The notes beneath the pieces were generated by a model that saw only the letters and a program-made list of their open reading frames with translations, did no database searches and was not told the origin of the DNA. Both the position numbers and the translations under genes were made by a program. Source: Escherichia coli (GTDB lineage: Bacteria; Pseudomonadota; Gammaproteobacteria; Enterobacterales; Enterobacteriaceae). Taken from it: 64,000 nucleotides of DNA. Within the stretch, counting starts at the first letter, position 1; every line of letters starts with the position of its first letter. Below are positions 306-28,908 of this stretch, piece by piece. The stretch is from the NCBI RefSeq assembly GCF_045037415.1, contig NZ_CP173438.1, one strand, 5' to 3'.

Positions 306-1439
306 TTAAACCGTCAGCACCACACAGCTGTCCACTTCCCAGCACAAACGCACTTCGTCGCCCCAGGTCGGTAACCCTTTACGATGACGATGGGCGTTTT
401 GTAGCTGGGCGCTAATCATCTGCCCACTTTTCAGACGAACGTGATACACCGAAAGATCGCCGAGATAGGCAATGTGTATCACCTCCCCCACCGCGAAGTT
501 ACAACCATTGGCGGGCGGTTCCTCGCAAAGCATGATTTTTTCCGGGCGAAGCGCCACATGCACCGGCACGTTATCGACCACTGAAGCATCCGCATCGACT
601 TTCAGTGGATGCACCAGCCCCGGCGAATAAAGCACCAGACCATCTTCCTGACGCTCTTTGAGTACACCTTCAAAGACATTAACCGAACCGATAAATTCAG
701 CACTGTAGCGAGTGGTCGGATGCTCGTAGATCTCTTCCGGCTCGCCAATCTGGACAAATTTCCCACGATTCATAATGGCGATGCGCCCCGCCATAGTCAT
801 CGCCTCTTCCTGATCGTGAGTAACCATTACGCAGGTCACACCGACGCGCTCCAGAATATCCACCACTTCAAGCTGCATCCGGTCACGCAGCTTTTTATCC
901 AGCGCGCCCATCGGCTCATCGAGCAGTAATAGTTTCGGGCGCTTGGCAAGGCTTCTGGCCAGGGCCACACGCTGACGCTGACCACCAGAAAGCTGATGCG
1001 GTTTGCGTTTGGCGAACTCCTGCATATGCACCAGCCCAAGCATCTCATTGACCCGGCTGGCAATTTCCGCTTTCGGTAGTTTGTCCTGTTTCAGGCCAAA
1101 AGCGATGTTCTGTTCCACGGTCATATGCGGAAACAGCGCGTAAGACTGAAACATCATATTGATGGGGCGCAGGTAAGGCGGCACCTGTGACAAATCGACG
1201 CCATCGAGCATAATCTGCCCGGCCGAAGGTTGTTCAAAACCTGCCAGCATACGCAGCAGCGTGGACTTGCCACAGCCGGATGCGCCCAGCAGCGCGAAGA
1301 TTTCACCTTTGTAGATGGTCAGGCTGACATCATCCACCGCATGTTGACCATCGTAGGATTTGGTCAGGTTACGGATTTCTAATAGCGGCGTCAGCGCCTT
1401 ACGGGTTTTCGCCTGCGGGCGAGGGATAGCGTCATTCAC
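306..1439 (-). CDS. potG: Putrescine ABC transporter ATP-binding protein PotG
   Basis: ORF track 306..1520(-); Walker A GASGCGKST, ABC signature LSGGQRQR, Walker B LLLLDEP; start placed at GTG 1437-1439 (VNDAIPRPQ...) giving 377 aa as in E. coli PotG. Confidence 0.9.
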   Translation of the reverse strand: MNDAIPRPQAKTRKALTPLLEIRNLTKSYDGQHAVDDVSLTIYKGEIFALLGASGCGKSTLLRMLAGFEQPSAGQIMLDGVDLSQVPPYLRPINMMFQSYALFPHMTVEQNIAFGLKQDKLPKAEIASRVNEMLGLVHMQEFAKRKPHQLSGGQRQRVALARSLAKRPKLLLLDEPMGALDKKLRDRMQLEVVDILERVGVTCVMVTHDQEEAMTMAGRIAIMNRGKFVQIGEPEEIYEHPTTRYSAEFIGSVNVFEGVLKERQEDGLVLYSPGLVHPLKVDADASVVDNVPVHVALRPEKIMLCEEPPANGCNFAVGEVIHIAYLGDLSVYHVRLKSGQMISAQLQNAHRHRKGLPTWGDEVRLCWEVDSCVVLTV

Positions 1440-1533
1440 GGCTGCTCTCCGGCATTGAATGTGTGCAAGCGCACCATGATGGTGCGAATTGCCGGCGGGT
1501 GTGGTGCGCCCCTCCGGCATCTACGGCTGCGGA

Positions 1534-2646
1534 TTATTTTCCGCTCTTCACTTTGGTCCAGGCGCGGGTGCGCACACGGTCGATTTTCGGGTCCTGCACT
1601 TTCAGAGTGAACAGCTTCGCACGAACATCCGCAGGCGGATAAATACCCGGGTTATCACGGACTTCCGCACTCACCAGCGGCGTGGCTGCTTTATTGGCGT
1701 TAGCATAGAACACATGGTCAGAGATATGTGCCACCACATCAGGACGCAGCAGGTAATTCAGGAACTGATAGGCTTCGTCTTTGTTTTTGGCATCCGCAGG
1801 CATGGCGAATACATCAAAGAACGCCATCGCCCCTTCTTTTGGAATCGAGAACGAGACATTCACGCCATTCTTCGCTTCCTTCGCGCGGTTTGACGCCTGC
1901 CAGACATCGCCCGCCCAGCCAATAGCGACACAGATGTCACCATTCGCCAGATCATTGATGTATTGGGATGAATGGAAATAACGAATGTTCGGGCGCAGCT
2001 TTAACAGCAGATCGGTAGCCGGTCCGGTGTAATCATCCGCTTTAGTGCTGTTAGGATCTTTGCCGAGATAATTCAGCACGGTAGCAAACACTTCTTCTGG
2101 CGCATCCAGGAAAGAGACACCGCAGCTTTTCAGTTTTTCCAGATTTTCAGGTTTGAGGATCAAGTCCCAGCTATCGACGGGCGCGTTTTCGCCCAGCACC
2201 GCTTTAACTTTATCGACGTTATAGCCAATCCCGGTCGTCGCCCACATATAGGGCATAGCAAATTTATTGTCGGGATCGTGTTTGGCGACCAACTTCAGCA
2301 GCTCCGGATCGAGATTCTTCCACTCCGGCAATTTGCTTTTATCCAGCGGCTGGAAAACTCCCGCTGTCAGCTGGCGCTCAAGAAAGCTTGCTGACGGCAC
2401 CACCAGATCAAAGCCGGTGCTCCCCGCCATTAATTTGCCTTCCAGTACTTCGTTAGAATCGAAAACATCATAGACGACTTTAATACCGGTTTCTTTTTCA
2501 AAGTTGGCCACCGTGTCCGGGGCGATATAATCAGACCAGTTATAAATGTGGAGTGTTTTTTGTTCAGCCGCGAGCGTGCTGACAGAAACGGCCATCAGAG
2601 CACCCGCAACCAGACCCGATAGCCATTTTTTATTTAAGGCGATCAT
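1534..2646 (-). CDS. potF: Putrescine-binding periplasmic protein PotF
   Basis: ORF track 1534..2790(-); internal ATG at 2644-2646 gives 370 aa M(I)ALNKKWLSGLVAGALMAVS... with signal peptide; matches PotF. Confidence 0.93.
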   Translation of the reverse strand: MIALNKKWLSGLVAGALMAVSVSTLAAEQKTLHIYNWSDYIAPDTVANFEKETGIKVVYDVFDSNEVLEGKLMAGSTGFDLVVPSASFLERQLTAGVFQPLDKSKLPEWKNLDPELLKLVAKHDPDNKFAMPYMWATTGIGYNVDKVKAVLGENAPVDSWDLILKPENLEKLKSCGVSFLDAPEEVFATVLNYLGKDPNSTKADDYTGPATDLLLKLRPNIRYFHSSQYINDLANGDICVAIGWAGDVWQASNRAKEAKNGVNVSFSIPKEGAMAFFDVFAMPADAKNKDEAYQFLNYLLRPDVVAHISDHVFYANANKAATPLVSAEVRDNPGIYPPADVRAKLFTLKVQDPKIDRVRTRAWTKVKSGK

Positions 2647-2995
2647 ATCTCTTTCCTTCTGAAAATTCGTTAACAAACGAACAAAAGTTGTCACACTGAA
2701 AGATATGCAATAAACGTGCATATTTTTATCGGCGCGGTGTAAGAAAAGAGAACTCTCTCCCGGCCTGCACTGCTCACTATATAAAAGCATCGCAAGAATA
2801 ACTTTAGCCAGGGTTTGAGACTATAGCTCGGATTAAAAAACGGTATTTAACAAATTTTTATGCGTATTTGCTCTATGTGATAAAGCCAAATCGGCACAAG
2901 AGAAGTGAATTAATCTTTAATAAAAGGTTAAAATCAGCGGATAATTTTGCGGCACGCAGTCACTGCGGCAGCGACTGCGTGCTCGAAAGAAGTTA

Positions 2996-3472
2996 TCAGT
3001 GGAGGAAATAGTTTTCGGTAACGTTATTTTGCCCTTCATCGTCAGTCGGTAACAGCAGTTGATGGGCATTAGCTTCAAGAATGACCATCGAAATCTGCTC
3101 TTCGCTCTGACGCACGAACCATGCAAACTGCTCATAGGTTACGCCCTGCATAACGGATAAAGACTGGCAAACCACCAGCTTTGGCAGATTATCATCCTGC
3201 ATATCAAGAAATGCTTTCACGGTCAGCGAACTGGCATTGATGGCTGATAAATCCGCCGCCAGCGGCAATACGGCTGAAGGTCGGACTTCCGCCATGGCAG
3301 AAAACAGGATCGTGTTATCGATCAGATCGATTTTAGCATCAAAGACACCGTCGAAATTCTGCATATGGGGCAGATGCAGAGCCTGACAGTTATCACATTC
3401 AAAAAAACTCATCCCCAGGTCATCGAGCCATTGACGCAACGTATCCAGACCAGGAACGACCAGCGATGTCAT
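2996..3472 (-). CDS. ybjN: YbjN family protein (putative sensory transduction regulator)
   Basis: ORF track 2996..3520(-); internal start gives 158 aa MTSLVVPGLDTLRQWLDD... matching E. coli YbjN. Confidence 0.9.
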   Translation of the reverse strand: MTSLVVPGLDTLRQWLDDLGMSFFECDNCQALHLPHMQNFDGVFDAKIDLIDNTILFSAMAEVRPSAVLPLAADLSAINASSLTVKAFLDMQDDNLPKLVVCQSLSVMQGVTYEQFAWFVRQSEEQISMVILEANAHQLLLPTDDEGQNNVTENYFLH

Positions 3473-3559
3473 AATTTTGTACAACCTCTTCCGATAAAAA
3501 GACCGGCACAGCTTACGCAAAAAGCGCAGGCAAAACCATGATCAGTAATGTGATTGCGA

Positions 3560-4462
3560 CTAACCACCCGTTTTCAGGCAATATTCTGTCGTAGCGTGGC
3601 GTTCGATCCAGCGGATCATTTTACCCGCGATGTCGATACCGGTGGTTTTTTCTATTCCTTCCAGCCCTGGCGACGCATTCACTTCCATCACCAACGGCCC
3701 GCGATTAGCACGCAGAATATCCACACCAGCAACGTCCAGCGCCATCGTTCGCGCGGCTTTTATCGCGATTTCACGCTCCTGTGGTGTGATACTGGCGACG
3801 CTTGCCGCGCCGCCACGATGCAAATTGGAACGAAAATCGCCCTCTTTCGCCCGCCGTTCAATCGCAGCGACTACTTCATCGCCAACAACCAGACAGCGGA
3901 TATCGCACCCTTGCGCCTCTTTGATATATTCCTGCACCAGAATATGCGCGTTCAGACCGCGGAAAGCGTCAATCACGCTTTCCGCCGCCTGACGCGTCTC
4001 CGCCAGCACGACGCCAATTCCCTGCGTGCCTTCAACCAGCTTGACCACCAGCGGCGCACCACCGACCATGTCGATTAAATCGCTGGTATCATCCGGCGAA
4101 TGCGCAATGCCCGTGACAGGCAGGTCGATGCCCTGACGCGCCAGCAGTTGCATGGAACGCAATTTGTCACGCGCCCGGGCAATGGCGACCGACTCATTGA
4201 GCGGATAGCTCCCCAGCATCTCGAACTGGCGCAGTGCCGCCGTCCCATAAAAGGTAATGGCGGTGCCAATACGCGGGATCACTGCGTCAAAATGGGGTAA
4301 CTTGCGGCCTTTGTAGTGAATAGAAGACGCCGCAGGATTTATGTTCATATAGCAAGAAAGCGGATCAAGAATTTCAACCAGGTGACCGCGCTGTATAGCG
4401 GCTTCACGCAGCCGCTTACACGAATAGAGCGTTCCATCCCGGGACAATATGGCAATTTTCAC
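3560..4462 (-). CDS. rimK: Ribosomal protein S6 L-glutamate ligase RimK (ATP-grasp)
   Basis: ORF track 300 aa [10 protein letters not shown]...; ATP-grasp family; first codon reads GTG in the sequence. Confidence 0.94.
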
Positions 4463-4522
4463 CCTGCACCTCTCTGTCAGACCTGGTCAAAAGCCCGCGT
4501 ATCATACATCGACGTGGCAGTT

Positions 4523-5245
4523 TTAGCGCGTCGCCCAACCCTGTTTGTGCAAATAATCCAGAATAAATGGGCGGCTTTCTTTAATGATTGTTCGGCGGAT
4601 ATGATCGCTCCAGGTATCCCGGCGATTATTGCTGCCACGGGTGAGGTAATATTCCGCCAGTTGCTCGTCATACTGCGCCAGTGCGTCTTTATCCAGCGGT
4701 TGATAGCTGTTTTCATGCACCAAAATGGAGGCCGGTAAACGCGGCTTAAGATCCGGATTATCCGCAGGCCAGCCAAGGCACAGCCCAAACAGCGGCAGAA
4801 CATGCTGCGGTAATTTCAGCAGTTCCGTCACCGCTTCAATATTATTGCGCAGGCCGCCGATATATACCCCGCCCAATCCCAGCGATTCCGCTGCGGTTAA
4901 TGCATTCTGCGCCATCATTGCCGTATCAACGACACCGAGCAACAGTTGTTCCGCCAGGCCGAGCTGAGCATCCGGACAGATCTGTAAATGGCGGTTAAAG
5001 TCGGCACAGAACACCCAAAACTCTGCCGCTTGCGCTACGTGTTTTTGCCCGCCGGTCAGCGTCACCAGTTCTTCACGTAACGCTTTGTCGGTAATGCGGA
5101 TAATGCTACTGCACTGCAAAAAACTGGAACTGGACGTCGCACGGGCGCTGTTAATAATCGCCTCACGCTGCGCTTCGGAAATGGGTTCATCAGTGAAATG
5201 GCGAATGGAGCGATGGCCACAAATAAGTTCAATGGTTGGCGTCAT
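4523..5245 (-). CDS. nfsA: Oxygen-insensitive NADPH nitroreductase NfsA
   Basis: ORF track 240 aa MTPTIELICGHRSIRHFTDEPI...; nitroreductase family. Confidence 0.95.
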   Translation of the reverse strand: MTPTIELICGHRSIRHFTDEPISEAQREAIINSARATSSSSFLQCSSIIRITDKALREELVTLTGGQKHVAQAAEFWVFCADFNRHLQICPDAQLGLAEQLLLGVVDTAMMAQNALTAAESLGLGGVYIGGLRNNIEAVTELLKLPQHVLPLFGLCLGWPADNPDLKPRLPASILVHENSYQPLDKDALAQYDEQLAEYYLTRGSNNRRDTWSDHIRRTIIKESRPFILDYLHKQGWATR

Positions 5246-5516
5246 TATCTTTTTCTCTTTCTGAACGTGAATATTGCGGTGGATGGTTCATCAGCTGTGG
5301 GGCAAGACGTTTTGCCACCTGAAGAATAACCACCACCGCAGCGGGAAGCATGAGCAAAACACCGAGAAAAATCATCAGAATCTGCACTTCTGGCCGAGAA
5401 AATGGCTCAGGTAGCGACAGGGAGTCGCTTACCGACAGCAGCGCCACCGCCAGCAACATCATTCCGATAAATTCCAGTATCAACACGCTTTTAGGCAATT
5501 TACCGATCGCGCGCAT
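5229..5516 (-). CDS. ybjC: Small membrane protein YbjC (DUF1418)
   Basis: ORF track 95 aa with two hydrophobic helices; overlaps nfsA start by 17 bp. Confidence 0.9.
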   Translation of the reverse strand: MRAIGKLPKSVLILEFIGMMLLAVALLSVSDSLSLPEPFSRPEVQILMIFLGVLLMLPAAVVVILQVAKRLAPQLMNHPPQYSRSEREKDNDANH

Positions 5517-5675
5517 ACGCTTCCCTCTGCAAAGTGAGCCTTCAGTCTAAAACTTTTCACTGTATTGTGTTTAACAGTTATAGCTTTTAGCAATTAATGC
5601 AACAGGTTAAACCTACTTTCAGCGAATACATTTTAGCGTGATCATTACAGGCATAAATCTATGAGGAGAGAAATA

Positions 5676-5933
5676 ATGCAAACCGTTATTTTTGGTCGTC
5701 CGGGTTGCCCTTACTGTGTGCGTGCAAAAGATCTGGCTGAGAAATTGAGCAATGAACGCGATGATTTCCAGTATCAGTATGTAGATATTCGTGCGGAAGG
5801 GATCACTAAAGAAGATCTACAACAAAAGGCAGGTAAACCCGTAGAAACCGTGCCGCAGATTTTTGTCGATCAGCAACATATCGGCGGCTATACCGATTTT
5901 GCTGCATGGGTGAAAGAGAATCTGGACGCCTGA
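5676..5933 (+). CDS. grxA: Glutaredoxin 1
   Basis: ORF track 5661..5933; ATG at 5676 gives 85 aa MQTVIFGRPGCPYCVRAK... with CPYC active site. Confidence 0.93.
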   Translation: MQTVIFGRPGCPYCVRAKDLAEKLSNERDDFQYQYVDIRAEGITKEDLQQKAGKPVETVPQIFVDQQHIGGYTDFAAWVKENLDA

Positions 5934-5941
5934 TCGTCTGA

Positions 5942-5976
5942 CAAGCCCTCGCATTGAGGGCTTTATTGATTTTTTC
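5942..5976. terminator. Bidirectional rho-independent terminator between convergent grxA and ybjM
   Basis: Hairpin AAGCCCTCGCATTGAGGGCTT followed by TATTGATTTTTT on plus strand. Confidence 0.6.
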
Positions 5977-6340
5977 TGTGCTGTGGTTTAAACAAACTAC
6001 TGATAAATAAGAAACACAATGCCCCCAGCGCACACCAGAACACCGCACTTAATAACCATGCCAGCTCTTGCCAGAATGAGCGCGTCGGTGAAAAAAACAG
6101 CCGCATAATGAGCATCGAGCAGGGTGCCGCCAGCATTGCGCCAAACAGAGGTTTCAGGACTTCTCTACGATGTGAAAAGAAGCTGGCAACTGCACCAGGA
6201 AGAATGAAAAATAGCAAACCGATTTCAGGATGCCCGGCAGCCCGAAAAGCGCCTTTCATGTGCGTCGCCAGAAAAAGACACACCACAATGAAGAGGACAA
6301 AACAGCAGATTGCCCCCGCCCAACGTTGTTTATGTTTCAC
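5963..6340 (-). CDS. ybjM: Inner membrane protein YbjM
   Basis: ORF track 125 aa MKHKQRWAGAICCFVLFIVV..., four hydrophobic segments; first codon reads GTG. Confidence 0.9.
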   Translation of the reverse strand: MKHKQRWAGAICCFVLFIVVCLFLATHMKGAFRAAGHPEIGLLFFILPGAVASFFSHRREVLKPLFGAMLAAPCSMLIMRLFFSPTRSFWQELAWLLSAVFWCALGALCFLFISSLFKPQHRKNQ

Positions 6341-6608
6341 TCGTTCCTCCTGACACTGCGTCTATCGAACACATTTTTCGCCAGTGTGGCGTTCAGTAAG
6401 ATAAAGCCGCTTCGCATTCCATGCTAATATAGGCCAACGCAATTCATATAGCCGTTGATACCTAATGTGATTACACTAGTAAAATATATTGTTACTTTAC
6501 TATCGTTTAGGTGCGCTGAATGAATCTGCGCCCTGAATTCTGGTAAAAACATTATCGTAAATTACCATTTCTTTCAACAGCTTACTAGTAAACAAGAAGT
6601 TAGCCTCC

Positions 6609-8294
6609 GTGAATATAAACGTCGCCGAATTGTTAAATGGGAATTACATTCTGTTATTATTTGTGGTCCTCGCGCTTGGGCTATGTCTCGGGAAATTACG
6701 ACTTGGTTCGATCCAACTGGGTAATTCCATTGGCGTTTTAGTCGTATCGCTGTTATTAGGCCAACAACATTTCAGCATTAACACCGACGCGCTTAATCTT
6801 GGCTTTATGCTGTTTATTTTCTGCGTCGGGGTCGAAGCCGGACCGAACTTTTTTTCCATTTTTTTTCGCGATGGGAAAAATTACCTAATGTTAGCACTGG
6901 TGATGGTTGGCAGTGCGCTGGTGATCGCCTTAGGGTTAGGTAAGCTGTTTGGCTGGGATATTGGCCTGACGGCCGGTATGTTAGCTGGCTCTATGACGTC
7001 GACACCGGTTCTGGTCGGTGCTGGCGATACACTGCGTCATTCCGGCATGGAAAGCAGGCAGCTCTCACTGGCACTGGATAATCTGAGCCTCGGGTATGCC
7101 TTAACCTATTTAATCGGTCTGGTGAGTTTGATTGTTGGTGCGCGTTACTTGCCGAAATTGCAGCATCAGGACTTACAGACCAGCGCCCAGCAAATCGCCC
7201 GCGAACGTGGCCTGGACACTGATGCCAACCGTAAGGTTTATTTACCGGTGATCCGCGCCTACCGCGTCGGCCCGGAGCTGGTGGCCTGGACCGACGGCAA
7301 AAATCTGCGTGAACTGGGTATTTATCGACAAACTGGCTGCTACATTGAACGTATTCGACGTAACGGGATTCTGGCAAATCCAGACGGTGATGCGGTGCTA
7401 CAAATGGGCGATGAAATAGCGTTGGTAGGCTATCCCGACGCCCACGCCCGACTCGATCCCAGCTTCCGTAACGGCAAAGAAGTTTTCGATCGTGACCTTC
7501 TCGACATGCGTATCGTCACTGAAGAAGTGGTCGTTAAAAACCATAACGCCGTTGGCAAACGTCTCGCACAACTGAAGTTGACCGATCACGGTTGCTTCCT
7601 TAACCGCGTCATTCGTAGCCAGATTGAGATGCCGATAGATGACAACGTCGTGCTTAACAAAGGTGACGTTTTACAAGTCAGCGGCGATGCCCGTCGCGTA
7701 AAAACCATCGCCGATCGCATCGGCTTTATCTCGATTCATAGCCAGGTCACTGACTTGCTGGCATTCTGCGCCTTCTTTGTTATTGGGCTGATGATCGGGA
7801 TGATCACCTTCCAGTTCAGCACATTCAGTTTCGGCATGGGAAACGCTGCCGGGTTGTTATTCGCCGGAATTATGCTGGGATTTATGCGCGCTAACCACCC
7901 GACCTTCGGTTACATTCCGCAGGGTGCATTAAGCATGGTGAAAGAGTTCGGCTTAATGGTGTTTATGGCAGGCGTTGGTCTGAGCGCCGGTAGCGGTATT
8001 AATAACGGCCTGGGCGCGATTGGCGGTCAGATGTTGATTGCCGGATTGATTGTCAGTCTTGTGCCAGTGGTTATCTGTTTCTTGTTCGGTGCTTATGTAT
8101 TGCGAATGAACCGCGCACTGTTGTTCGGCGCAATGATGGGCGCACGCACCTGCGCGCCGGCAATGGAGATCATCAGTGATACAGCTCGCAGTAACATCCC
8201 GGCGCTGGGCTATGCGGGCACCTATGCAATCGCCAACGTCCTGCTGACGCTGGCAGGGACAATCATCGTCATGGTATGGCCAGGATTAGGATAA
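6609..8294 (+). CDS. ybjL: Putative AAE-family transporter YbjL (two TrkA-C domains)
   Basis: ORF track 561 aa [20 protein letters not shown]...; first codon GTG at 6609; stop TAA 8292-8294 confirmed. Confidence 0.93.
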
Positions 8295-8335
8295 AACTGA
8301 AGTTGCCCTGAAAATGAAATTTTTTTTGCACAACC

Positions 8336-8367
8336 GCAGAACTTTTCCGCAGGGCATCAGTCTTAAT
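8336..8367 (+). promoter_or_regulatory. Sigma-E type promoter of rybB (-35 GAACTT, -10 TCTTAA)
   Basis: GAACTT at about 8339-8344 and TCTTAA at about 8361-8366 with 16 bp spacing, immediately upstream of the RybB 5-prime end. Confidence 0.55.
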
Positions 8368-8371
8368 TAGT

Positions 8372-8450
8372 GCCACTGCTTTTCTTTGATGTCCCCATTT
8401 TGTGGAGCCCATCAACCCCGCCATTTCGGTTCAAGGTTGATGGGTTTTTT
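8372..8450 (+). ncRNA. rybB: RybB small regulatory RNA (Hfq-dependent, sigma-E regulon)
   Basis: GCCACTGCTTTTCTTTGATGTCCCCATTTTGTGGAGCCCATCAACCCCGCCATTTCGGTTCAAGGTTGATGGGTTTTTT matches RybB as I recall it; ends in a GC-rich hairpin plus U-tract; lies in the ybjL-rcdA spacer. Confidence 0.85.
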
Positions 8451-8469
8451 GTTGCCTGAAATTTATCTA

Positions 8470-9006
8470 CTACCCAGCAATCCTCTCAACCATCCTCAAA
8501 ATCTCCTCGCGTGATAGCGGCTTACGGTCGGTGACAAAATGCAGCGTCATTCCCTCAATAAACGCATCAAGCGCGCGGGCGGTTCCGGGTTCAAACCATT
8601 GTTCGAGCGTTTGTTGACTGCGCTGCATCCAGTTTTGCATTACCGTTTTTAAGAGCGGTTTTCGGCTAGCCAGCGCGTAGAGCTGGTACATCAGCTCCAT
8701 ATTATCCGGCGTTGCGACCTGTGAGCTGTAGATCATATCGGTGATAGCCTGGCATGCGCCTGGAGCATCACTAACATCGCTAAAAAATGCCTGATATTGC
8801 CGGGACATGATCTCAGTAAAACGGCTGAACGCCTCCAGCAACAACTCATCAATTCCTGAAAAATAGTAGGTCATCGATCCCAACGGCACCCCGGCAAGGG
8901 TAGCAATTTTGCGGTGTGTAACAGCATGTATTCCGTAAAGTTTCACCGCCTCCAGCGTGGCCTGGATAATTTTTTCTCGTCGTTGCGGATCGTTAGCGCG
9001 ACGCAT
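8470..9006 (-). CDS. rcdA: TetR-family transcriptional regulator RcdA (YbjK)
   Basis: ORF track 8470..9036(-); ATG at 9004-9006 gives 178 aa [21 protein letters not shown]... with TetR HTH. Confidence 0.92.
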
Positions 9007-19756: not shown

Positions 19757-19765
19757 GAATAATGA

Positions 19766-21094: not shown

Positions 21095-21101
21095 ACGTAA
21101 A

Positions 21102-23450
21102 CTACTCTTTTACTAATTTTCCACTTTTATCCCAGGCGGAGAATGGCATGGGTTTCTGGTACAGATACCCCTGAGCCTGAACACATCCTAATTTGATTAA
21201 TTCACGCGCAACGTCTTCGCTCTCTACGCCTTCCGCAATCACCGGGATCCGGTTATAGCGTGCCAGATCGAAAATAATGCGCACAATTTTTCCCGCAGTA
21301 CCGAAAATATCGCCGGTAAATTGCGAATCCACCTTTATACTGTCTGGATTAATTTCATAAAAACGTTTCAGGTTTGACAAACCGGTGCCAAAGTCATCAA
21401 TCGATACCCGTACCCCTTGTTTACGCAGTTGTTCAATATTGAGATAGAAATGTTCATTAATTCGCTCGATCACGGTTTCGGTGATCTCAACACAAAGGCT
21501 GTTCGCCTTCAGGCCATTTTCTTTCATGATGGTAGTAAAACGCTCATGAAAGTGTGGTTCGTTTAACTGCCAGGGCGAAACATTAATATGCAGTAAGAAA
21601 TCATCCTTCAGCGACGCACGCTGACTAAAATGTCTGAATTCACCCATCGCGGTTTTAATAATTTGATAGCCCAGCTCATTGATAAACCCGATATCTTCAG
21701 CAATGGTAATGAACTTCAGCGGTGAAATAATCCCCCGCTCCGCAGACACCCAACGGCACAACGCCTCCGCGCCCAAAATGGTGCGGGTGTTAATATCAAC
21801 AATCGGTTGATAGACCAGGAATAGTTCGCCAATTTCCATTGCATGGCGAATATTACGCGCAATCCAGATATTCTCTTCTATTTCGTTGAGTTTCGCATCA
21901 TCACAGAAAATAAACTCTGAGAACATATGGTTGCGGATACTGGAAATCGCCAGTTTCAGCTTTTCTGCGTAACTCCAGGCGTTTTCCCCCTGCAAAGGTT
22001 CACAAATAGCAGACTTATGGATGCGCAGATTGCGGTAGCCAAAACTGCTGTCAAAATCGTTTACCGTCGCTATCTTACGGGTAAACGTCTGTACATTTTC
22101 CCGGCACAGGAGTAAATAGAGATCGGCATTAAATGTCACGATATCGCAGCATTGCGCATATTTCTCGGCAATTCGCTGACACAATTTCCTGACGATTTTA
22201 TTGCGTTCATCAACACCAAACACCGCTTCCACAGCTTCCAGACCACACAGTTTGATGATCCCCACAGCCAGATACTGATTATTGTTGGACTCAATAATCG
22301 CCATATTTTTAATAAAACCGCTTTCCTGATCGTAAGAGATCAGCGAGAGCAATTTATTTGCCCGTTCAATTTCAGCATCTTTCATTTCCGCGATCGAATT
22401 TTTGATGCTGATAATCTCTTTCGCATCGCCTTCACGAATCTTCAGGGCCTCGATTTGATCCGTAGAGTCAGGCAAAAACGCCAGCGTATTGACCAAATCT
22501 GTCATTTCAGAAAATTGACGACGGAAAACTCGAGTGGTCATTAAATAAACCACCAGCAATACGATAATAATGAAAGCAAACGGCAGATAAAAAAGTTTAT
22601 CTGATGCGTTCAATAAATTACCACCAGGATAATAAAAATAGATTTCGAATAATGCGTTGTTTGGCACCGCTGATGTTTTTTCAATATATTCCGTATCGAC
22701 AGAATCAATAATATTATAATTACCTTCGCTATTATAAATAATCAATTTTTCACGAGCGAGTTGATTCTTAGCAATGATCTCATGACCTTGCTTTAAAAAT
22801 AGAACTTCATCATTAGCGCTGATGTGATCAAGATACTCGTTCAGATATCGCCAGTTTAAATCGACATGAATTTTATCTACCGCTAACAAATCATGATCTT
22901 TGCCGTTGATGTGTAGCGTAAAAGAGATACATTTTTTACCCGGACGATCAAAGCAATTGTATGCCGGGTTCCAGCTGTTGTTAGAGTCATCTGAAGCCAT
23001 CGACCACGGTCGTTTCGATGGGTTAAAATCGGCAAAAATAACCCGCCCTGACTCGTCGACAAGCGGTCCATTTACTTGTTCCTGATGATAAACAACGATT
23101 TTATCATTCGCCCTCCGCGAAAAGAGATAATATTTATTATCATCAAGTACCAGTCCCACCGAGTCTAAAAATGGCATCATTTCCATTTTCAGAATCACGG
23201 CACGTTGAATCTCCTCTGTATTTTTTAATAAATACAGTGAGTCCTTTAATGTCAGGGCCGAACGTTCAATATCTTTAAAGAAATAGCCAACGTTTTTCTG
23301 AATAAGTTCAAAGCGGCTATCGGCACGTTTTACCGCGCGTTCCGATACCAGTTGATAGTTAATGATGAAAAAAAGACCAATAAATGACAATGCTGCCAAT
23401 AAAAATAAAATTATCAGCCTTATCTTTATCTTTTCGTATAAACTCAGCAT
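21102..23450 (-). CDS. pdeI: Membrane c-di-GMP phosphodiesterase PdeI (YliE), EAL domain
   Basis: ORF track 782 aa; TM helices flank a periplasmic region; EAL motif (GAEALCRW); 7 bp upstream of dgcI on the same strand. Confidence 0.94.
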
Positions 23451-23626
23451 GTTAATACATTTAAAAAAATAACTGTCTGAACGCTGTGCCGCTGCAAAAT
23501 AGTCCCTTGCTGCGGCTTTTTAACCAAATTACCCGATTCTACAAAATCAGCAGAAAGTTACAACACTTGCTTAGGGCAATAATTTCCTGTGAGGTGATTA
23601 CCCTTTCAAGCAATATTCAAACGTAA

Positions 23627-24538
23627 CTATCCTTTAATTTTCGGATCCAGCGCATCGCGTAAACCATCGCCCAACAAATTGAACGCCAGTACGGTCAGAA
23701 AAATAGCCAGGGCCGGAAATACAGCGACATGCGGCGCGATAACCATATCCGCTCGTGCCTCATTGAGCATTGCACCCCACTCTGGTGTCGGCGGCTGCGC
23801 ACCGAGGCCGAGAAATGACAGGCTGGCGGCAGAGATAATCGAGGTGCCAATGCGCATGGTGAAAAACACCACGATAGAAGAGACGGTCCCAGGCAAGATA
23901 TGACGCAACAAAATGGTCATATCGCTGGCACCAATACTGCGTGCTGACTCGATAAAGGTTTGCTGTTTCAACACCAGCGTGTTGCCGCGCACCAGCCGGG
24001 CAAACGCGGGGATGGAAAAAATGGCGACTGCGATAATCACGTTAGCAATGCCGCTTCCCAACACCGCAACAACAGCGATCGCCAGTAAAATACCCGGGAA
24101 GGCAAACAGCACATCGCAAATGCGCATGATCAGCCGATCCCACCAGCCTTCATAATATCCAGCCAGCAAGCCCAGCAACGTCCCGATCGCCGCACCGATA
24201 AACACGGCAAACACGCCCGCCGCCAGCGAGATTTGCGCACCAACCAGGACACGGCTGAAAATGTCGCGCCCCAGTGAATCGACACCAAACCAGTGCTGCA
24301 AAGAAGGTCCGTTATTCAGATTGTCATAATCAAAATAATTTTCGGCGTCATAGGGAGCGATCCAGCGTGCAAAAATGGCCACCACAATCAATAAAATAAC
24401 GAACAATGCGGCGGTCATCGCCATATGCTGACGGCGAAATCGTCGCCAGAATTCATGCCACGGTGTACGTACCTGGTCAGGTTTGACCAGTGGCATGGCG
24501 TTTAACACCGCCTGACGTCGCCAGTTAAATAGTCGCAT
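23627..24538 (-). CDS. gsiD: Glutathione ABC transporter permease GsiD
   Basis: ORF track 303 aa; Opp/Dpp-type permease. Confidence 0.94.
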
Positions 24539-24540
24539 CC

Positions 24541-25461
24541 TTACTTGTACCTGATAGCCGGGTTAATGGCGGCGTAAAGCACATCCACCACTAAGTTGAT
24601 AAGAATAAATTCCAGCGAGAAAAGCAGAATTTCCGCCTGAATCACTGGGTAATCGCGCATTTCTACGGAGTCAACGAGTAAGCGTCCAAGTCCGGGCCAG
24701 TTGAAAACTTTCTCCACCACGATGGAACCACCGAGCAAGAAGCCAAACTGTAAGCCCATCATGGTCACTACCGGGATCATCGCGTTGCGTAGCCCGTGTT
24801 TGAGGACAACCCAGGTTTCGCTCACCCCTTTCGCCCTCGCGGTACGCATATAATCTTCGCTTAAAACGTCGACAAACGACGCGCGGGTAAAGCGCGCCAT
24901 CACGGCGGCCACTGCCGCGCCGAGCGTCAGGGAGGGTAAAATGTAGTGCTGCCAACTGTCTGCTCCCACGGTAGGCAGCCAGCCCAGTTCAACGGAGAAT
25001 ACCTGAATTAAAAGTATCCCCAGAGCAAATGCCGGAAACGAGATCCCCGACACCGCAATGGTCATACTCAATCGATCCGGCCAACGGTTACGCCAGACGG
25101 CGGCGATAATTCCCGCCGCCATACCAAATATCACCGCCCAGACCATACTGGTTATGGTCAGCCAGAGCGTTGGCATAAAGCGGCTGGCAATCTCATCGGC
25201 AACCGGACGACGCGACACCATCGACAGGCCAAAATCCCCCTGCACAGCATTGCTGATATAGTGCCAGAACTGGTGATACAGCGGCTGATCCAACCCCAAC
25301 TGCTGACGCACCAGTTCTATAACCTGCGCATCAGCTTCGGGCCCGGCAATCAATCGCGCCGGATCGCCGGGCAGCATATGGACAAATAAAAACACCAGCA
25401 CCGAGACGATAAACAGCGTCGGAATCAACCCCAGTAAGCGTTTGATAACGTAATTAAGCAT
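24541..25461 (-). CDS. gsiC: Glutathione ABC transporter permease GsiC
   Basis: ORF track 306 aa [24 protein letters not shown]...; Opp/Dpp-type permease. Confidence 0.94.
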
Positions 25462-25478
25462 TCCACTCCCTGCGTTGC

Positions 25479-27017
25479 TTATTGCAAATCCGCGTCTTCA
25501 AAGCTGAAGCCGGTGTCTGGCATGATCCAAAAACCGGTCAGGTTTTTACTGTGTGCCGACACCAGTTTTTCTACCACCAGCGGGATCCACGGCGACTCTT
25601 GCCAGATGATATCCTGCGCCGCCTTATACAAGCGGGTCTTTTCCGCCGGATCATTAGTTTTCAGTGCCTGAGCCAGGAAGTCATCCACCTGTTTATTGCT
25701 GTAAAACGCGGTATTAAACAGCGTTGGTGGCCAGTTCTGCGAGGCAAACAGCGGCGATAGAGCCCAGTCGGCTTCGCCGGTTGAAGCCGACCAGCCAGTG
25801 TAGAACATCCGCACGCAGCTCTCTTTTTGCCCTTTACCTTCAACTTCTGCCGCCCGCTGTCCGGCATCCATCGCAGTCACCTGGGCTTTAATCCCAACCT
25901 GCGCTAACTGCTGCTGGGTAAATTGCAGCACTTTCTGCGCGGTGCTGTGGTTATGTGACGACCACAGCGTGGTACTGAAACCGTTGGGATATCCCGCCTC
26001 TTTCAGTAATTCGCGCGCTTTCACTGGATCGTAAGGCCACGGTTTATAACTTTGCGCGTAGGCGATACTCGGCGGTACCACACCAGTAGCTGGCGTTGCA
26101 TAGCCCGCGAAGGCCACTTTCACCAGCGCCGGGCGGTTAATGGCGTAATTCAGCGCCTCACGGACCTTCGGGTTATCGAACGGCTTTTGCGTCACGTTCA
26201 TACTGATATAACGCTGCATAATTGACGGACTGGCCATCAACTCGATATTTTTGTTTTTCTCCAGCAGTGCGGCCTGCTCGTAGGGAATGGGGAAAGCAAA
26301 CTGCGCTTCACCGGTTTGCAGCATTGCCGCGCGGGTGTTGTTATCCGCCACCGGACGCCAGGTTATGCTGTCCAGTTTGGGCAATCCTGGCTGCCAGTAA
26401 CCCGCGAATTTTTTCACCTTCACAAAATCGGTCTGATTCCAGGTATCCAGTTCATACGGCCCGGTTCCCACCGGATGAAAACCAATCTCCTTGCCATATT
26501 TTTCCAGCGCTGCCGGTGATATCATCGCGGTCGCCGGATGGGCAAGAATATTAATAAACGCTGAGAATGGCTGTTTGAGGGTAATCTTTACCGTTGTCGG
26601 ATCGATCGCTTCCGTTTTGGCGATATTCTTATACAGGTTATAGCGTTTAAGATGATTCGCCGGATCGCTGGCCCGGTCCAGATTCGCTTTCACCGCCGCT
26701 GCGTTGAAATCGGTGCCATCCTGGAATTTAATGCCTTCCCGCAATTTCACGGTGTAAGTAAGGCCGTCATCGGAAACGGTGTAACTCTCCGCCAGCACGT
26801 TTTTCAGTTTCATCTCTTTATCCAGACCGAACAGCCCCTGGTAAAACGATTTCGCTACGGCCTGAGATAACGTGTCATTTGCGTCATACGGATCGAGCGT
26901 GGTGAAGTTCGATCCCACCGCCACCACCACCTCTTTGGCAGCGAATGCACAAGATGCCATCAACGCTGTCGCAATGCCCAGCGCCACTAACCCACTACGG
27001 TGTACAGCTCTTGCCAT
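25479..27017 (-). CDS. gsiB: Glutathione-binding periplasmic protein GsiB
   Basis: ORF track 25479..27284(-); internal ATG gives 512 aa [26 protein letters not shown]... with signal peptide; family 5 solute-binding protein. Confidence 0.92.
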
Positions 27018-27036
27018 TTTATTCTCCGCCTGAATG

Positions 27037-28908
27037 TTATCTACGCATGAATGCGTATTCTGATTGTGGTTGTGCGACGTAATGCCCCGGCCCGACGCAT
27101 TGCAACGAGACGGCTGCAACCTCTTCGCCACGCAGATGAATATTGCTGGGAAGATCGTCCGACAGCAGTACACGCTGCGGTCGTTGTCGGGACGGTTCAG
27201 CGACCGGAACTGCCGCCAGTAATTTACGCGTATAAGGATGCTGCGGATTTTCAAAGACCGCGCGCCGTGGACCAATTTCAACAATTTGCCCGAGATACAT
27301 CACCGCCACACGATGACTAATCCGCTCAACCACGGCCATATCGTGGGAGATAAACAGATACGCAATGCCGAAATCACGCTGGAGATCGAGCAACAAGTTG
27401 ATAATCTGCCCGCGAATAGAAACATCCAGCGCCGAGACGGCTTCGTCGGCAATGATCACTTTTGGATTCAATGCCAACGCGCGAGCAATGCAGATGCGCT
27501 GGCGCTGACCGCCGGAAAACTCATGTGGGTAACGCCAGGCATGTTCCGGTAACAGGCCCACGCGCTCCAGCAACCACGCAACGCGTGCAGCCGCTTCTTT
27601 ACCTGGCAATAAACCGTGTACGCGCAGCGGTTCGAGAATCGAATCACCGATAGTCTGACGTGGGTCCAGCGAAGCGTAAGGGTCCTGAAAAATAAACTGA
27701 ATATCGCGGCGCAATGCCTGAAGTTTACCGGGTGACAAGGTATCGATTCGCTGACCGTTAAAGATAATTTCGCCGCCCTGCGATTCGACCAGGCGCAACA
27801 ACGCCCGCCCGGTAGTGGATTTACCGCTGCCAGACTCGCCCACCAGCGATAGCGTTTCGCCAGGCCAGAGATCAAAACTGACTTTCTCAACGGCATGCAC
27901 TTCCCGCGTTACGCGATTCAACAAACCGCTGCGCAAAGGGAAACGGGTGACCAGATTACGCACCCGTAAAACAGGTTCGCCATCCACCACCGTTTTCTGC
28001 TCGATGGATGACTCCTGTTTCGCTGGATGTTCAAGCGATATCAATGGGAAACGTCGGGGATAATCTAACCCTTTCATCGCACCAAGTTGCGGAACAGCAG
28101 CTAACAGCGCACGGGTATAAGGATGTTGCGGTGCATGAAAAATCTGTTCGACGCTACCCGTTTCCACCGCCTCGCCCTGATACATCACCAGTACCCGATC
28201 GGCAATCTCTGCCACCACACCCATATCGTGAGTGATAAAGATAACGCCCATCGACATCTCTTTTTGCAATACTTTGATTAATTGCAGGATCTGCGCCTGA
28301 ATAGTGACATCCAGCGCGGTGGTTGGCTCATCGGCAATCAGCACCGCCGGGCGGCATGACAGCGCCATCGCAATCATCACTCGCTGGCGCATCCCGCCAG
28401 AGAGTTGATGCGGATAACGTGAAAGAATGGTTTGTGCCTCCGGAATGCGTACCTGATCCAGCATCCGCTTCGCCTCGACCATCGCTTCTTCACGACTGGC
28501 GTTCTGATGCAGACGAATAGATTCAGCAATCTGTTCACCCACAGTAAATACCGGGTTCAGCGATGTCATCGGCTCCTGAAATATCATCGCCATATCCGCA
28601 CCGCGCACATGGCGCATTTGTGCAGCGCTCTGCTCGCTAAGTTCAATTACTTCGCGACTGCGCCGCTGCAACAGCATTTTATCGCACTGCACTAAACCGC
28701 CCGCCTGTTCCAACAGGCGCATCAATGCCAGCGCAGTCACTGACTTACCGGAGCCGGATTCGCCAACAATTGCCAGCGTCTCACCACGTTGCAGGCTAAA
28801 AGAGAGATTGCGGACCGCAGCTATTTTCTGCTGCTCCTGCATAAAGGCAATATTCAGATTTTCAACCGCCAGCACATCACCGGCATCAAGTTCATCACTG
28901 TGTGGCAA
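27037..28908 (-). CDS. gsiA: Glutathione ABC transporter ATP-binding protein GsiA (tandem ABC domains)
   Basis: ORF track 27037..29016(-); two Walker A motifs (GESGSGKS twice) and two LSGG signatures; no in-frame ATG before PHSDELD, so start inferred at TTG 28906-28908 (623 aa); start uncertain. Confidence 0.88.

What the first reader, a model, noticed from the sequence alone, without database searches (positions are those of the whole stretch)
306..28908. Several genes appear to use non-ATG starts (potG GTG, rimK GTG, ybjM GTG, ybjL GTG, gsiA TTG)
Reading the sequence at the ORF-track start positions shows GTG or TTG first codons for these genes, and gsiA has no in-frame ATG before its conserved N-terminus. 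Automated callers that favour ATG may mis-set these starts.
Basis: seen in the sequence. Interest (0 to 1): 0.15.

Follow-up and report, generated by a model that had tools for sequence, protein, structure and literature searches.

The report
Five ordinary GTG/TTG gene starts
Five E. coli genes in this stretch really do begin with GTG or TTG instead of ATG, which is the normal rate for this bacterium and is already in the curated reference annotation, so the finding is correct but ordinary.

Summary
The window is E. coli chromosome (potH to iaaA, reversed relative to K-12). The five first codons are as stated: potG GTG (1439, -), rimK GTG (4462, -), ybjM GTG (6340, -), ybjL GTG (6609, +), gsiA TTG (28908, -). 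PGAP and the curated K-12 record use the same starts.

Five of 28 genes (18%) matches the E. coli background of about 17%.

- **Conservation:** across 66-80 Enterobacteriaceae the aligned codon stays GTG or TTG. It is ATG only for rimK in Trabulsiella. Codon periodicity begins exactly at it.
- **Experiment:** rimK has an N-terminal peptide, Ribo-RET and INRI-seq support. ybjM has Ribo-RET and INRI-seq. potG has a weak INRI-seq signal. ybjL and gsiA have none.
- **Error in the finding:** gsiA does have in-frame upstream ATGs (29016, 29007, inside iaaA). They lack ribosome-binding sites and are not conserved.
- **Mis-set starts:** the warning holds. ATG-shifted versions are deposited for four genes (for example rimK 262 aa on 224 contigs, ybjL 495 aa on 62); gsiA's first downstream ATG version is not.

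Already known; low interest. The one oddity is ybjL: no Shine-Dalgarno, and a start region nearly invariant even at wobble positions.

The parts
1437..1439 (-). potG GTG start codon (377-aa product)
   Evidence: The aligned codon is GTG in 55 and TTG in 11 of 66 Enterobacteriaceae, never ATG, and 18 of 66 have a stop codon immediately upstream. Weak INRI-seq signal. Colinear with PotA, residue 12 to residue 10.
1445..1450 (-). potG Shine-Dalgarno GGAGAG, 5 nt before the GTG
   Evidence: duplex -6.6 kcal/mol. ccGGAGAg is conserved across genera.
1518..1520 (-). Rejected alternative: upstream in-frame ATG of potG (404-aa version)
   Evidence: No Shine-Dalgarno (+0.5 kcal/mol). An upstream in-frame ATG exists in only 12 of 66 genera. 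No codon periodicity upstream. Still deposited on 10 contigs.
4460..4462 (-). rimK GTG start codon (300-aa product)
   Evidence: GTG in 71, ATG in 3 and TTG in 2 of 76 genera. N-terminal peptide MKIAILSR plus Ribo-RET and INRI-seq. Solved structures 5ZCT and 4IWX cover residues 1-300.
4467..4474 (-). rimK Shine-Dalgarno GAGAGGTG, 4 nt before the GTG
   Evidence: -10.1 kcal/mol. Conserved across genera.
6338..6340 (-). ybjM GTG start codon (125-aa product)
   Evidence: TTG in 60 and GTG in 16 of 79 genera, never ATG. INRI-seq 133-184 in 5 of 5 replicates and Ribo-RET 27.4.
6346..6351 (-). ybjM Shine-Dalgarno AGGAGG, 5 nt before the GTG
   Evidence: -10.3 kcal/mol. Conserved across genera.
6609..6611 (+). 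ybjL GTG start codon (561-aa product), no Shine-Dalgarno
   Evidence: GTG in 80 of 80 genera. N-terminus colinear with homologues down to about 35% identity and with solved AspT. No signal in INRI-seq or Ribo-RET.
6546..6665 (+). Nearly invariant block spanning the ybjL leader and codons 1-19 (side observation)
   Evidence: Twelve of the first 19 wobble positions are invariant, against 13% gene-wide. Less structured than 198 of 200 shuffles. No Rfam match.
28906..28908 (-). gsiA TTG start codon (623-aa product)
   Evidence: TTG or GTG at the aligned position in all 9 taxa read. In-frame stops lie 4-5 codons upstream in 3 taxa. The native 51-mer is present in 5,422 of 5,426 E. coli genomes and the ATG variant in none.
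28915..28920 (-). gsiA Shine-Dalgarno AAGGGG, 6 nt before the TTG, inside the iaaA coding sequence
   Evidence: -7.8 kcal/mol. AAGGAG, AAGGGG or AAGAGGA in the other genera.
28895..28908 (-). 14-nt overlap of the iaaA 3' end (stop TGA at 28895-28897) with the gsiA 5' end
   Evidence: This is the layout expected for translational coupling, which is inferred and not tested.
29005..29016 (-). Rejected alternatives: in-frame ATGs 36 and 33 codons upstream of the gsiA TTG, inside iaaA
   Evidence: weak or no Shine-Dalgarno. Not available in taxa with an in-frame stop 4-5 codons upstream. Used in a few deposited annotations, 659 aa and 656 aa.

Best explanation
All five are genuine near-cognate start codons, placed exactly where the curated E. 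coli annotation puts them.

**General mechanism.** GUG and UUG are read by the normal initiator fMet-tRNA, so the proteins still begin with Met. Initiation is less efficient than from AUG. This is established knowledge.

**potG, rimK, ybjM and gsiA.** The weak codon is paired with a well-placed Shine-Dalgarno sequence 4-6 nt upstream.

**gsiA.** Both the TTG and its Shine-Dalgarno lie inside the end of iaaA, with a 14-nt overlap. Initiation is therefore probably coupled to ribosomes finishing iaaA. This step is inferred.

**ybjL.** It has no Shine-Dalgarno. It most likely initiates weakly or conditionally from an A/U-rich, unstructured region. This step is also inferred.

**Selection.** The codon stays non-ATG across genera, and there are no ATG variants in 5,426 E. 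coli genomes. This suggests the low initiation rate is tolerated or maintained rather than being a recent accident.
For: **Annotation.** PGAP and curated K-12 use identical starts and lengths.

**Conservation of the codon position.**
- potG: GTG 55, TTG 11, ATG 0.
- rimK: GTG 71, ATG 3, TTG 2.
- ybjM: TTG 60, GTG 16, ATG 0.
- ybjL: GTG 80 of 80.
- gsiA: TTG or GTG in 9 of 9 taxa, with in-frame stops 4-5 codons upstream in 3 of them. It keeps TTG plus TAAGGAG even in E. fergusonii, which lacks iaaA.

**Coding signature.** It starts at the annotated codon. For potG codons 2-63, variability at codon positions 1, 2 and 3 is 0.022, 0.028 and 0.322, against a flat 0.59 upstream. rimK, ybjM and ybjL behave the same way.

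**Ribosome-binding sites.** Duplex energies are rimK -10.1, ybjM -10.3, gsiA -7.8 and potG -6.6 kcal/mol. The median for the 23 ATG genes is -6.3.

**Experiment.**
- rimK: N-terminal peptide MKIAILSR from the GTG (PMC13245402 Table S1).
- INRI-seq and Ribo-RET are positive for ybjM and rimK. INRI-seq is weakly positive for potG (PMC9825163 Table S2).

**Structure and homology.**
- RimK crystal structures cover residues 1-300.
- PotG residue 12 aligns with PotA residue 10.
- YbjL residue 6 aligns with AspT residue 5. YbjL residue 1 aligns with residue 1 of homologues down to 36% identity.
- The GsiA ABC domain begins at residue 9-13, so an ATG 22 codons downstream of the TTG would truncate it.

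**Population.** ATG variants of all five 51-mers are found in 0 of 5,426 complete E. coli genomes. The native gsiA and potG 51-mers are found in 5,422 and 4,989 genomes.
Against: - ybjL and gsiA have no direct initiation-site evidence. Both gave zero reads at the annotated start in vitro (INRI-seq) and in vivo (Ribo-RET).
- For ybjL, the in-vitro assay placed a peak at an in-frame ATT 39 nt downstream, in 4 of 5 replicates.
- The potG signal is at the detection threshold: 5.2 and 7.3 in 2 of 5 replicates, with Ribo-RET 0.
- For gsiA, structural homology alone cannot separate the TTG from the GTG 11 codons downstream. Solved homologues have only 3-4 residues before the domain.
- Only 9 taxa were read for gsiA.
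- Translational coupling of gsiA, and selection for weak initiation in general, are inferences from layout and conservation.
Confidence: 0.92

Rival explanations
1. potG and gsiA really start at the upstream in-frame ATGs (potG 1520, 404 aa; gsiA 29016 or 29007, 659 or 656 aa), and the GTG/TTG calls are annotation artefacts.
For: The frames are open back to these ATGs. Some deposited annotations use them: potG 404 aa on 10 contigs, gsiA 659 aa on 2 and 656 aa on 5.
Against: - These ATGs have no Shine-Dalgarno: +0.5 kcal/mol for potG, -1.5 and -4.8 for gsiA.
- In 18 of 66 genera a stop codon sits immediately before the potG start, and only 12 of 66 have any upstream in-frame ATG.
- There is no codon periodicity upstream of potG.
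- Three gsiA orthologues have an in-frame stop 4-5 codons upstream with no start codon in between.
- PotG at 377 aa is colinear with PotA at 378 aa.
- The K-12 protein records are later versions (NP_415376.4 and NP_415350.2). I take these to be start revisions, which is an inference.
Confidence: 0.02
2. The true starts are the first downstream ATGs (potG +63 codons, rimK +38, ybjM +27, ybjL +66, gsiA +22), as an ATG-favouring caller would choose.
For: Such truncated versions are deposited: rimK 262 aa on 224 contigs, ybjM 98 aa on 38, ybjL 495 aa on 62.
Against: - The skipped segments are under strong protein-coding constraint. Variability at codon positions 1 and 2 is 0.00-0.05 against 0.26-0.32 at position 3 for potG, rimK and ybjL.
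- Orthologue alignments reach residue 1.
- These ATGs have no Shine-Dalgarno.
- They would delete parts of solved domains.
- rimK has an N-terminal peptide from the GTG.
- The 601-aa gsiA version is not in the protein collection at all.
Confidence: 0.01
3. gsiA initiates, wholly or partly, at a neighbouring near-cognate codon (GTG at 28926, -6 codons, or GTG at 28875, +11 codons) rather than at the TTG.
For: - Both codons exist in E. coli. GTG+11 has a moderate Shine-Dalgarno-like match of -6.0 kcal/mol.
- A start at +11 would still leave the ABC domain intact.
- Both versions have been annotated: 629 aa and 612 aa, 3 contigs each.
- There is no experimental signal at the TTG.
Against: - GTG-6 is absent in Salmonella, C. 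farmeri, [E.] lignolyticus and E. fergusonii. It is excluded by in-frame stops in three other taxa.
- GTG+11 is absent in Salmonella, Lelliottia and the two metagenome taxa.
- The peptide PHS-x-(E/D)-(L/I)-(D/E) after the TTG is conserved, with synonymous changes, in genera where it does not overlap iaaA.
- The Shine-Dalgarno is always 6-9 nt before the aligned TTG/GTG.
Confidence: 0.06
4. ybjL is not initiated at the GTG but at a downstream site (in-frame ATT at +39 nt, TTG at codon 8 or GTG at codon 19). On this view the upstream conservation reflects a regulatory element, not coding sequence.
For: - The GTG has no Shine-Dalgarno (-1.1 kcal/mol).
- INRI-seq gave zero reads at the GTG despite the highest template abundance of the neighbourhood. 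It gave a peak at the ATT in 4 of 5 replicates.
- Nucleotide-level invariance of codons 1-19 could mimic protein conservation.
Against: - Codon 14 is ATT, ATC or ATA across genera, which is ordinary Ile wobble.
- Homologues at 36-60% identity have unrelated DNA but start at the aligned residue 1 with the pattern M-x-I-(D/N)-x-x-x-L.
- Solved AspT aligns from its residue 5 to YbjL residue 6.
- The GTG is invariant in 80 of 80 genera.
Confidence: 0.06

Closest known systems
Curated E. coli K-12 MG1655 annotation of potG (b0855), rimK (b0852), ybjM (b0848), ybjL (b0847) and gsiA (b0829)
   Same: Identical start codons (GTG, GTG, GTG, GTG, TTG), identical product lengths (377, 300, 125, 561, 623 aa) and essentially identical upstream sequence.
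   Different: Nothing relevant. The window is a different strain, 100% identical to ST131-type genomes, with a few substitutions elsewhere.
Standard bacterial initiation at near-cognate GUG/UUG codons by fMet-tRNA with a Shine-Dalgarno sequence
   Same: - The codon differs from AUG only at the first base.
- A Shine-Dalgarno sequence lies 4-6 nt upstream for potG, rimK, ybjM and gsiA.
- Met is the first residue of the rimK product.
- The frequency matches the genome norm of 14% GTG and 3% TTG.
   Different: ybjL lacks the Shine-Dalgarno element. Belinky et al. (PMC5622118) report weak selection favouring AUG overall, whereas four of these five positions were never ATG in any genus read. That is notable but was not tested against a neutral model here.
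Translational coupling through overlapping stop and start codons in operons
   Same: The gsiA TTG and its Shine-Dalgarno lie inside the 3' end of iaaA on the same strand, with a 14-nt overlap. The gsiA initiation region is the most structured of the 28 examined (-18.5 kcal/mol). It is silent when offered alone in vitro.
   Different: Coupling was not tested. In Salmonella, Lelliottia and Leclercia the genes do not overlap (10-11 nt gap). E. fergusonii has no iaaA upstream at all. Coupling therefore cannot be obligatory for the family.
Shine-Dalgarno-independent initiation on unstructured, A/U-rich leaders (see PMC7043885, title and abstract)
   Same: The ybjL initiation region has no anti-Shine-Dalgarno complementarity. 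It is 60% A+T in a 49% A+T window, and it folds less well than 198 of 200 shuffles.
   Different: - It combines a weak GTG codon with the absence of a Shine-Dalgarno.
- It is not shown to be leaderless.
- Its exact sequence, not just its lack of structure, is conserved.
- It was not used by ribosomes in vitro.

Membership tests
Genuine near-cognate (GUG/UUG) bacterial start codon | First codon is GTG or TTG at the 5' end of the conserved coding region, in frame, with no better-supported start upstream | tested here: met
   All five codons were confirmed. Codon periodicity begins at them. Upstream candidates are absent (rimK, ybjM, ybjL) or neither conserved nor preceded by a Shine-Dalgarno (potG, gsiA).
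Genuine near-cognate (GUG/UUG) bacterial start codon | Shine-Dalgarno complementarity at about 4-9 nt upstream | tested here: inconclusive
   Met for potG, rimK, ybjM and gsiA (-6.6 to -10.3 kcal/mol, spacers 4-6 nt). Not met for ybjL (-1.1 kcal/mol). A Shine-Dalgarno is common but not obligatory in E. coli.
Genuine near-cognate (GUG/UUG) bacterial start codon | Start position conserved in orthologues | tested here: met
   66-80 Enterobacteriaceae loci for four genes; 9 taxa for gsiA; distant YbjL homologues.
Genuine near-cognate (GUG/UUG) bacterial start codon | Direct evidence of initiation: an initiating-ribosome footprint or an N-terminal peptide beginning with Met at that codon | tested here: inconclusive
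   From published tables. Met for rimK (peptide, Ribo-RET, INRI-seq) and ybjM (Ribo-RET, INRI-seq). Marginal for potG. Absent for ybjL and gsiA, which gave no signal anywhere in vivo and so were probably not expressed.
Translationally coupled gene pair (iaaA-gsiA) | Downstream start codon and its Shine-Dalgarno lie within or next to the end of the upstream gene on the same strand | tested here: met
   14-nt overlap, with the Shine-Dalgarno AAGGGG inside iaaA.
Translationally coupled gene pair (iaaA-gsiA) | Downstream translation depends on translation of the upstream gene | not testable with these tools
   Only indirect hints: a structured initiation region (-18.5 kcal/mol) and no initiation on the isolated fragment in vitro.
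Shine-Dalgarno-independent initiation region (ybjL) | No anti-Shine-Dalgarno pairing, low secondary structure and A/U richness around the start | tested here: met
   z = +2.05; -1.1 kcal/mol; 60% A+T.
Shine-Dalgarno-independent initiation region (ybjL) | Demonstrated ribosome loading at the start codon | tested here: not met
   Zero reads at the GTG in INRI-seq (5 replicates) and in Ribo-RET. The start therefore rests on homology and conservation, not on observed initiation.
Known RNA family over the ybjL leader (riboswitch, leader or sRNA) | Match to an Rfam covariance model | tested here: not met
   The only match in the first 30 kb of the window is RybB at 8375-8453. Nothing matches in 6300-6760 even at E<=1.

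The most novel reading that the evidence does not exclude
The roughly 120-nt block around the ybjL start (window 6546-6665) may be an undescribed cis-regulatory element acting on translation initiation, rather than only a set of repressor sites on DNA. Candidate forms are an operator for a protein or small RNA, or a standby or enhancer site that lets ribosomes use a GTG with no Shine-Dalgarno.

The block is invariant across Enterobacteriaceae, including 12 of the first 19 wobble positions. This would explain why the isolated fragment is not initiated at the GTG in vitro.
Probability: 0.2. Interest if true: 0.4.

Novelty: already known. Interest (0 to 1): 0.08.

Why it matters
It matters little biologically. 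About one E. coli gene in six starts with GTG or TTG, and these five are already set that way in the curated reference.

The practical value is for annotation quality. Truncated or extended ATG-start versions of these same proteins sit in public databases on tens to hundreds of contigs. Those versions lose the first strands of the RimK fold, part of the first transmembrane region of YbjL and YbjM, or add spurious extensions to PotG and GsiA.

The cross-genus tables here give a simple rule for fixing such calls. They also show that four of the five positions were never ATG in any genus read (rimK is ATG only in Trabulsiella), which fits tuned low expression of transporter subunits.

The only lead worth a bench experiment is the unusually constrained ybjL start region, which has no Shine-Dalgarno.

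Tried and rejected
- **Upstream ATG starts for potG and gsiA.** Rejected on conservation, missing Shine-Dalgarno and absent periodicity.
- **Downstream ATG starts for all five.** Rejected on coding constraint, domain truncation and, for rimK, a peptide.
- **The INRI-seq ATT(+39) site as the real ybjL start.** Rejected because the codon drifts between ATT, ATC and ATA, and because the family N-terminus aligns at residue 1.
- **A small overlapping ORF as the cause of ybjL wobble conservation.** Only a 34-aa +1-frame ORF from ATG 6637 exists, with a one-replicate INRI-seq signal. Not pursued.
- **A known RNA family or a stable RNA structure over the ybjL leader.** None was found, and the region is less structured than shuffles.
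- **A sigma-70 promoter or terminator in 6300-6720.** None was found by the simple scan.
- **TrpR- or TyrR-like operators.** I compared the TTAC-NN-GTAA palindrome with these from memory. I rejected the idea because the central CTAG is not conserved, and no motif search was run.
- **Retrieval failures.** The Meydan et al. preprint has no supplementary files held. The published version of the 64-codon paper is not held, so the preprint was used. One paper search failed on term length.

Full report
**What the window is.** The first 20 kb match E. coli chromosomes at 100% identity in ST131-type strains. The region runs from potH to iaaA and is reversed relative to K-12. I took gene coordinates from the PGAP annotation of strain AR_0089. 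I compared them with the curated K-12 MG1655 record.

**Check of the observation.** I read the first codon of all 28 complete genes between 306 and 29860.

| Gene | Start codon | Window position | Strand |
|---|---|---|---|
| potG | GTG | 1439 | - |
| rimK | GTG | 4462 | - |
| ybjM | GTG | 6340 | - |
| ybjL | GTG | 6609 | + |
| gsiA | TTG | 28908 | - |

- The other 23 genes start with ATG.
- K-12 has the same five codons and the same product lengths.
- Five of 28 is 18%. E. coli genes use AUG, GUG and UUG at 83%, 14% and 3% (bioRxiv 10.1101/063800).
- The binomial chance of five or more is about 0.53.
- The remaining 32 genes of the window have two GTG starts, ybiT and glnQ.

**One statement is wrong.** The gsiA frame is open for 40 codons upstream. 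It contains ATGs at 29016 and 29007, inside iaaA.

**Alternative starts and ribosome-binding sites.** I listed every in-frame ATG, GTG and TTG from the upstream stop to 80 codons downstream, with the anti-Shine-Dalgarno duplex energy.
- rimK and ybjM have no upstream candidate. Their sites are strong: GAGAGGTG at -10.1 kcal/mol and AGGAGG at -10.3 kcal/mol.
- potG has GGAGAG (-6.6) five nucleotides before the GTG. Its upstream ATG at 1520 has none (+0.5).
- gsiA has AAGGGG (-7.8) six nucleotides before the TTG. Its upstream ATGs score -1.5 and -4.8.
- ybjL has no Shine-Dalgarno (-1.1).
- Among all 28 genes, four of the five score at or above the ATG-gene median of -6.3, and ybjL is near the bottom. 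Coordinates were verified.

**Conservation in other genera (potG, rimK, ybjM, ybjL).** One scan with YbjL returned 80 Enterobacteriaceae loci with 10-kb flanks, which also carry ybjM, rimK and potG. Orthologue alignments reach residue 1 in nearly all of them.

| Gene | GTG | TTG | ATG | Other | Loci |
|---|---|---|---|---|---|
| potG | 55 | 11 | 0 | 0 | 66 |
| rimK | 71 | 2 | 3 | 0 | 76 |
| ybjM | 16 | 60 | 0 | 3 | 79 |
| ybjL | 80 | 0 | 0 | 0 | 80 |

- These counts are the codon aligned with the E. coli start.
- In 18 potG loci a stop codon sits directly before the start. Only 12 have any upstream in-frame ATG.
- The three rimK ATG loci are all Trabulsiella.
- The potG TTG switches occur in Citrobacter, Trabulsiella, Cedecea, Kosakonia, Pseudocitrobacter and Buttiauxella.
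- Codon periodicity begins at the annotated codon and is absent upstream. For potG codons 2-63, variability at positions 1, 2 and 3 is 0.022, 0.028 and 0.322, against a flat 0.59 upstream. The other three genes behave alike.

**Conservation in other genera (gsiA).** I took eight orthologues from a protein search and fetched their DNA.
- The aligned codon is TTG in E. coli, C. farmeri, E. fergusonii and one metagenome contig.
- It is GTG in Salmonella, Lelliottia, Leclercia, [E.] lignolyticus and another contig.
- A Shine-Dalgarno always lies 6-9 nt upstream.
- Three taxa have an in-frame stop 4-5 codons upstream with no start codon in between.
- E. fergusonii lacks iaaA altogether and still has TAAGGAG followed by TTG.
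- The peptide PHS-x-(E/D)-(L/I)-(D/E) after the start is conserved, with synonymous differences, where it does not overlap iaaA.

**E. coli population.** For each gene I searched a 51-nt query with the start changed to ATG. No match was found in 5,426 complete genomes for any of the five. The native gsiA and potG queries matched 5,422 and 4,989 genomes.

**Published experimental evidence.**
- TRAINSPOTTER N-terminomics lists the peptide MKIAILSR at rimK position 1-8 from the GTG at K-12 891967. It is flagged as also seen by Ribo-RET and INRI-seq (PMC13245402 Table S1).
- INRI-seq Table S2 also tabulates the Ribo-RET values of Meydan et al. (PMC9825163):

| Gene | INRI-seq at annotated start | Ribo-RET |
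|---|---|---|
| ybjM | 133-184 in 5 of 5 replicates | 27.4 |
| rimK | 5.4-7.1 in 3 of 5 replicates | 26.2 |
| potG | 5.2 and 7.3 in 2 of 5 replicates | 0 |
| ybjL | 0 | 0 |
| gsiA | 0 | 0 |

- Table S3 lists non-annotated sites only for ybjL. These are an in-frame ATT at +39 nt (51.9, 4 of 5 replicates) and an out-of-frame ATG at +28 nt (one replicate).
- Two genes are therefore well verified, one marginally, and two not at all.

**Structure and family colinearity.**
- RimK crystal structures contain residues 1-300 from MKIAILS. Pseudomonas RimK aligns from residue 1.
- PotG residue 12 aligns with PotA residue 10. The 377-aa form therefore matches the 378-aa paralogue, and the 27-aa extension has no counterpart.
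- The GsiA ABC domain starts at residue 9-13 relative to solved DppD, OppD and Rv1281c chains. This rules out the ATG 22 codons downstream of the TTG, but not on its own the GTG 11 codons downstream.
- YbjL residue 6 aligns with residue 5 of solved AspT.
- An exhaustive search found full-length YbjL homologues at 36-60% identity whose residue 1 aligns with YbjL residue 1. They share the pattern M-x-I-(D/N)-x-x-x-L.
- Three of those homologues have unrelated DNA and use ATG, GTG and ATG.
- The ybjL GTG start therefore stands on protein evidence.

**Are callers fooled?** I looked up exact sequences of the alternative products of this strain's alleles.

| Gene | Alternative form | Contigs |
|---|---|---|
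| potG | 404 aa (upstream ATG) | 10 |
| rimK | 262 aa (downstream ATG) | 224 |
| rimK | 295 aa | 2 |
| ybjM | 98 aa (downstream ATG) | 38 |
| ybjM | 107 aa | 2 |
| ybjL | 495 aa (downstream ATG) | 62 |
| ybjL | 554 aa | 32 |
| ybjL | 543 aa | 24 |
| gsiA | 659 aa | 2 |
| gsiA | 656 aa | 5 |
| gsiA | 629 aa | 3 |
| gsiA | 612 aa | 3 |
| gsiA | 601 aa | 0 |

**How it works.**
- Established knowledge: GUG and UUG pair with the initiator tRNA and give Met at position 1, with lower efficiency than AUG. This is summarised in PMC5622118 and in the 64-codon study.
- Shown here: the positions, the Shine-Dalgarno partners and their conservation.
- Inferred, point 1: the weak codons help keep these transporter subunits and enzymes at low levels. 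Four of the five positions were never ATG in any genus, although GTG to ATG is a single transition.
- Inferred, point 2: gsiA is coupled to iaaA. The two overlap by 14 nt. The gsiA initiation region is the most structured of the 28 (-18.5 kcal/mol), and it is silent in isolation in vitro.
- Inferred, point 3: ybjL uses an unstructured, A/U-rich region instead of a Shine-Dalgarno.

**Side observation on ybjL.**
- Positions 6546-6665 are almost invariant in 80 genomes whose ybjL genes are otherwise 79-91% identical.
- Twelve of the first 19 wobble positions are invariant, against 13% across the gene. No other 19-codon window away from the 5' end exceeds 7.
- potG and rimK show only 4 and 6 invariant wobble positions in their first 19 codons.
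- The block holds a TTAC-NN-GTAA palindrome whose centre varies between genera. That pattern suggests a protein-binding site.
- Reg-Seq lists three unidentified repressor sites for ybjL (PMC7567609).
- No Rfam family matches.
- Whether the constraint acts on DNA or on the mRNA is open.

**Verdict.** The phenomenon is ordinary and is already in the reference annotation.

Noticed in passing
window 6546-6665 (+), ybjL leader and codons 1-19: This roughly 120-nt block is nearly invariant across 80 Enterobacteriaceae. Twelve of the first 19 wobble positions are invariant, against 13% gene-wide. It is A/U-rich, has no Shine-Dalgarno and is less structured than 198 of 200 shuffles. It holds a TTAC-NN-GTAA palindrome at 6582-6591, with a related ATTACACTAGTAAAA at 6470-6484. 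There is no Rfam match. Reg-Seq reports three unidentified repressor sites for this promoter.
   Followed up: partly
window 6648-6650 (ybjL codon 14, ATT) and 6637-6639 (out-of-frame ATG): Published in-vitro INRI-seq shows no initiation at the ybjL GTG. It shows a peak assigned to the in-frame ATT 39 nt downstream (4 of 5 replicates) and a one-replicate signal at an out-of-frame ATG that opens a 34-aa ORF. The ATT drifts to ATC or ATA in other genera, so it is unlikely to be a conserved start.
   Followed up: partly
window 28909-28925 (A5G4 run, which is the gsiA Shine-Dalgarno); proteins P0004-P0006, P0008, P0018: Some deposited E. coli assemblies encode 900-940-aa IaaA-GsiA fusion proteins. 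In the 940-aa forms the junction reads ...[16 protein letters not shown] infer a 1-nt frame change in the homopolymer run at the gene overlap, but no DNA was read. I did not determine whether these are sequencing errors or real variants.
   Followed up: no
L088 (E. fergusonii), gsiA at 1501: E. fergusonii has no iaaA upstream of gsiA. The gene follows a 233-nt intergenic region after the divergent moeA. It still keeps a TTG start with TAAGGAG, and it has an extra in-frame ATG 7 codons upstream with no Shine-Dalgarno.
   Followed up: partly
window 8375-8453 (+): The RybB small RNA gene (Rfam RF00110, 105 bits) lies between ybjL and rcdA, as in K-12. A paper reports a prophage integration site between these two genes in strain NC101.
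   Followed up: no
window 21102-23450 (-), pdeI: pdeI is an intact 782-codon ORF in the window. It is annotated as a frameshifted pseudogene in the otherwise near-identical strain AR_0089, because of a 1-nt length difference.
   Followed up: no
window 1440-1533 (-), potF-potG intergenic region: The 9-mer ATGCCGGAG occurs twice. One copy is at the rejected upstream ATG (1520). The other overlaps the real potG Shine-Dalgarno. The potG initiation region is fairly structured (-15.3 kcal/mol).
   Followed up: no
L003-L082, start codons of ybjM, potG and rimK: ybjM and potG switch repeatedly between GTG and TTG across genera without ever showing ATG, although GTG to ATG is a single transition. rimK is ATG only in Trabulsiella. 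This suggests ATG is avoided, but it was not tested against a neutral substitution model.
   Followed up: partly
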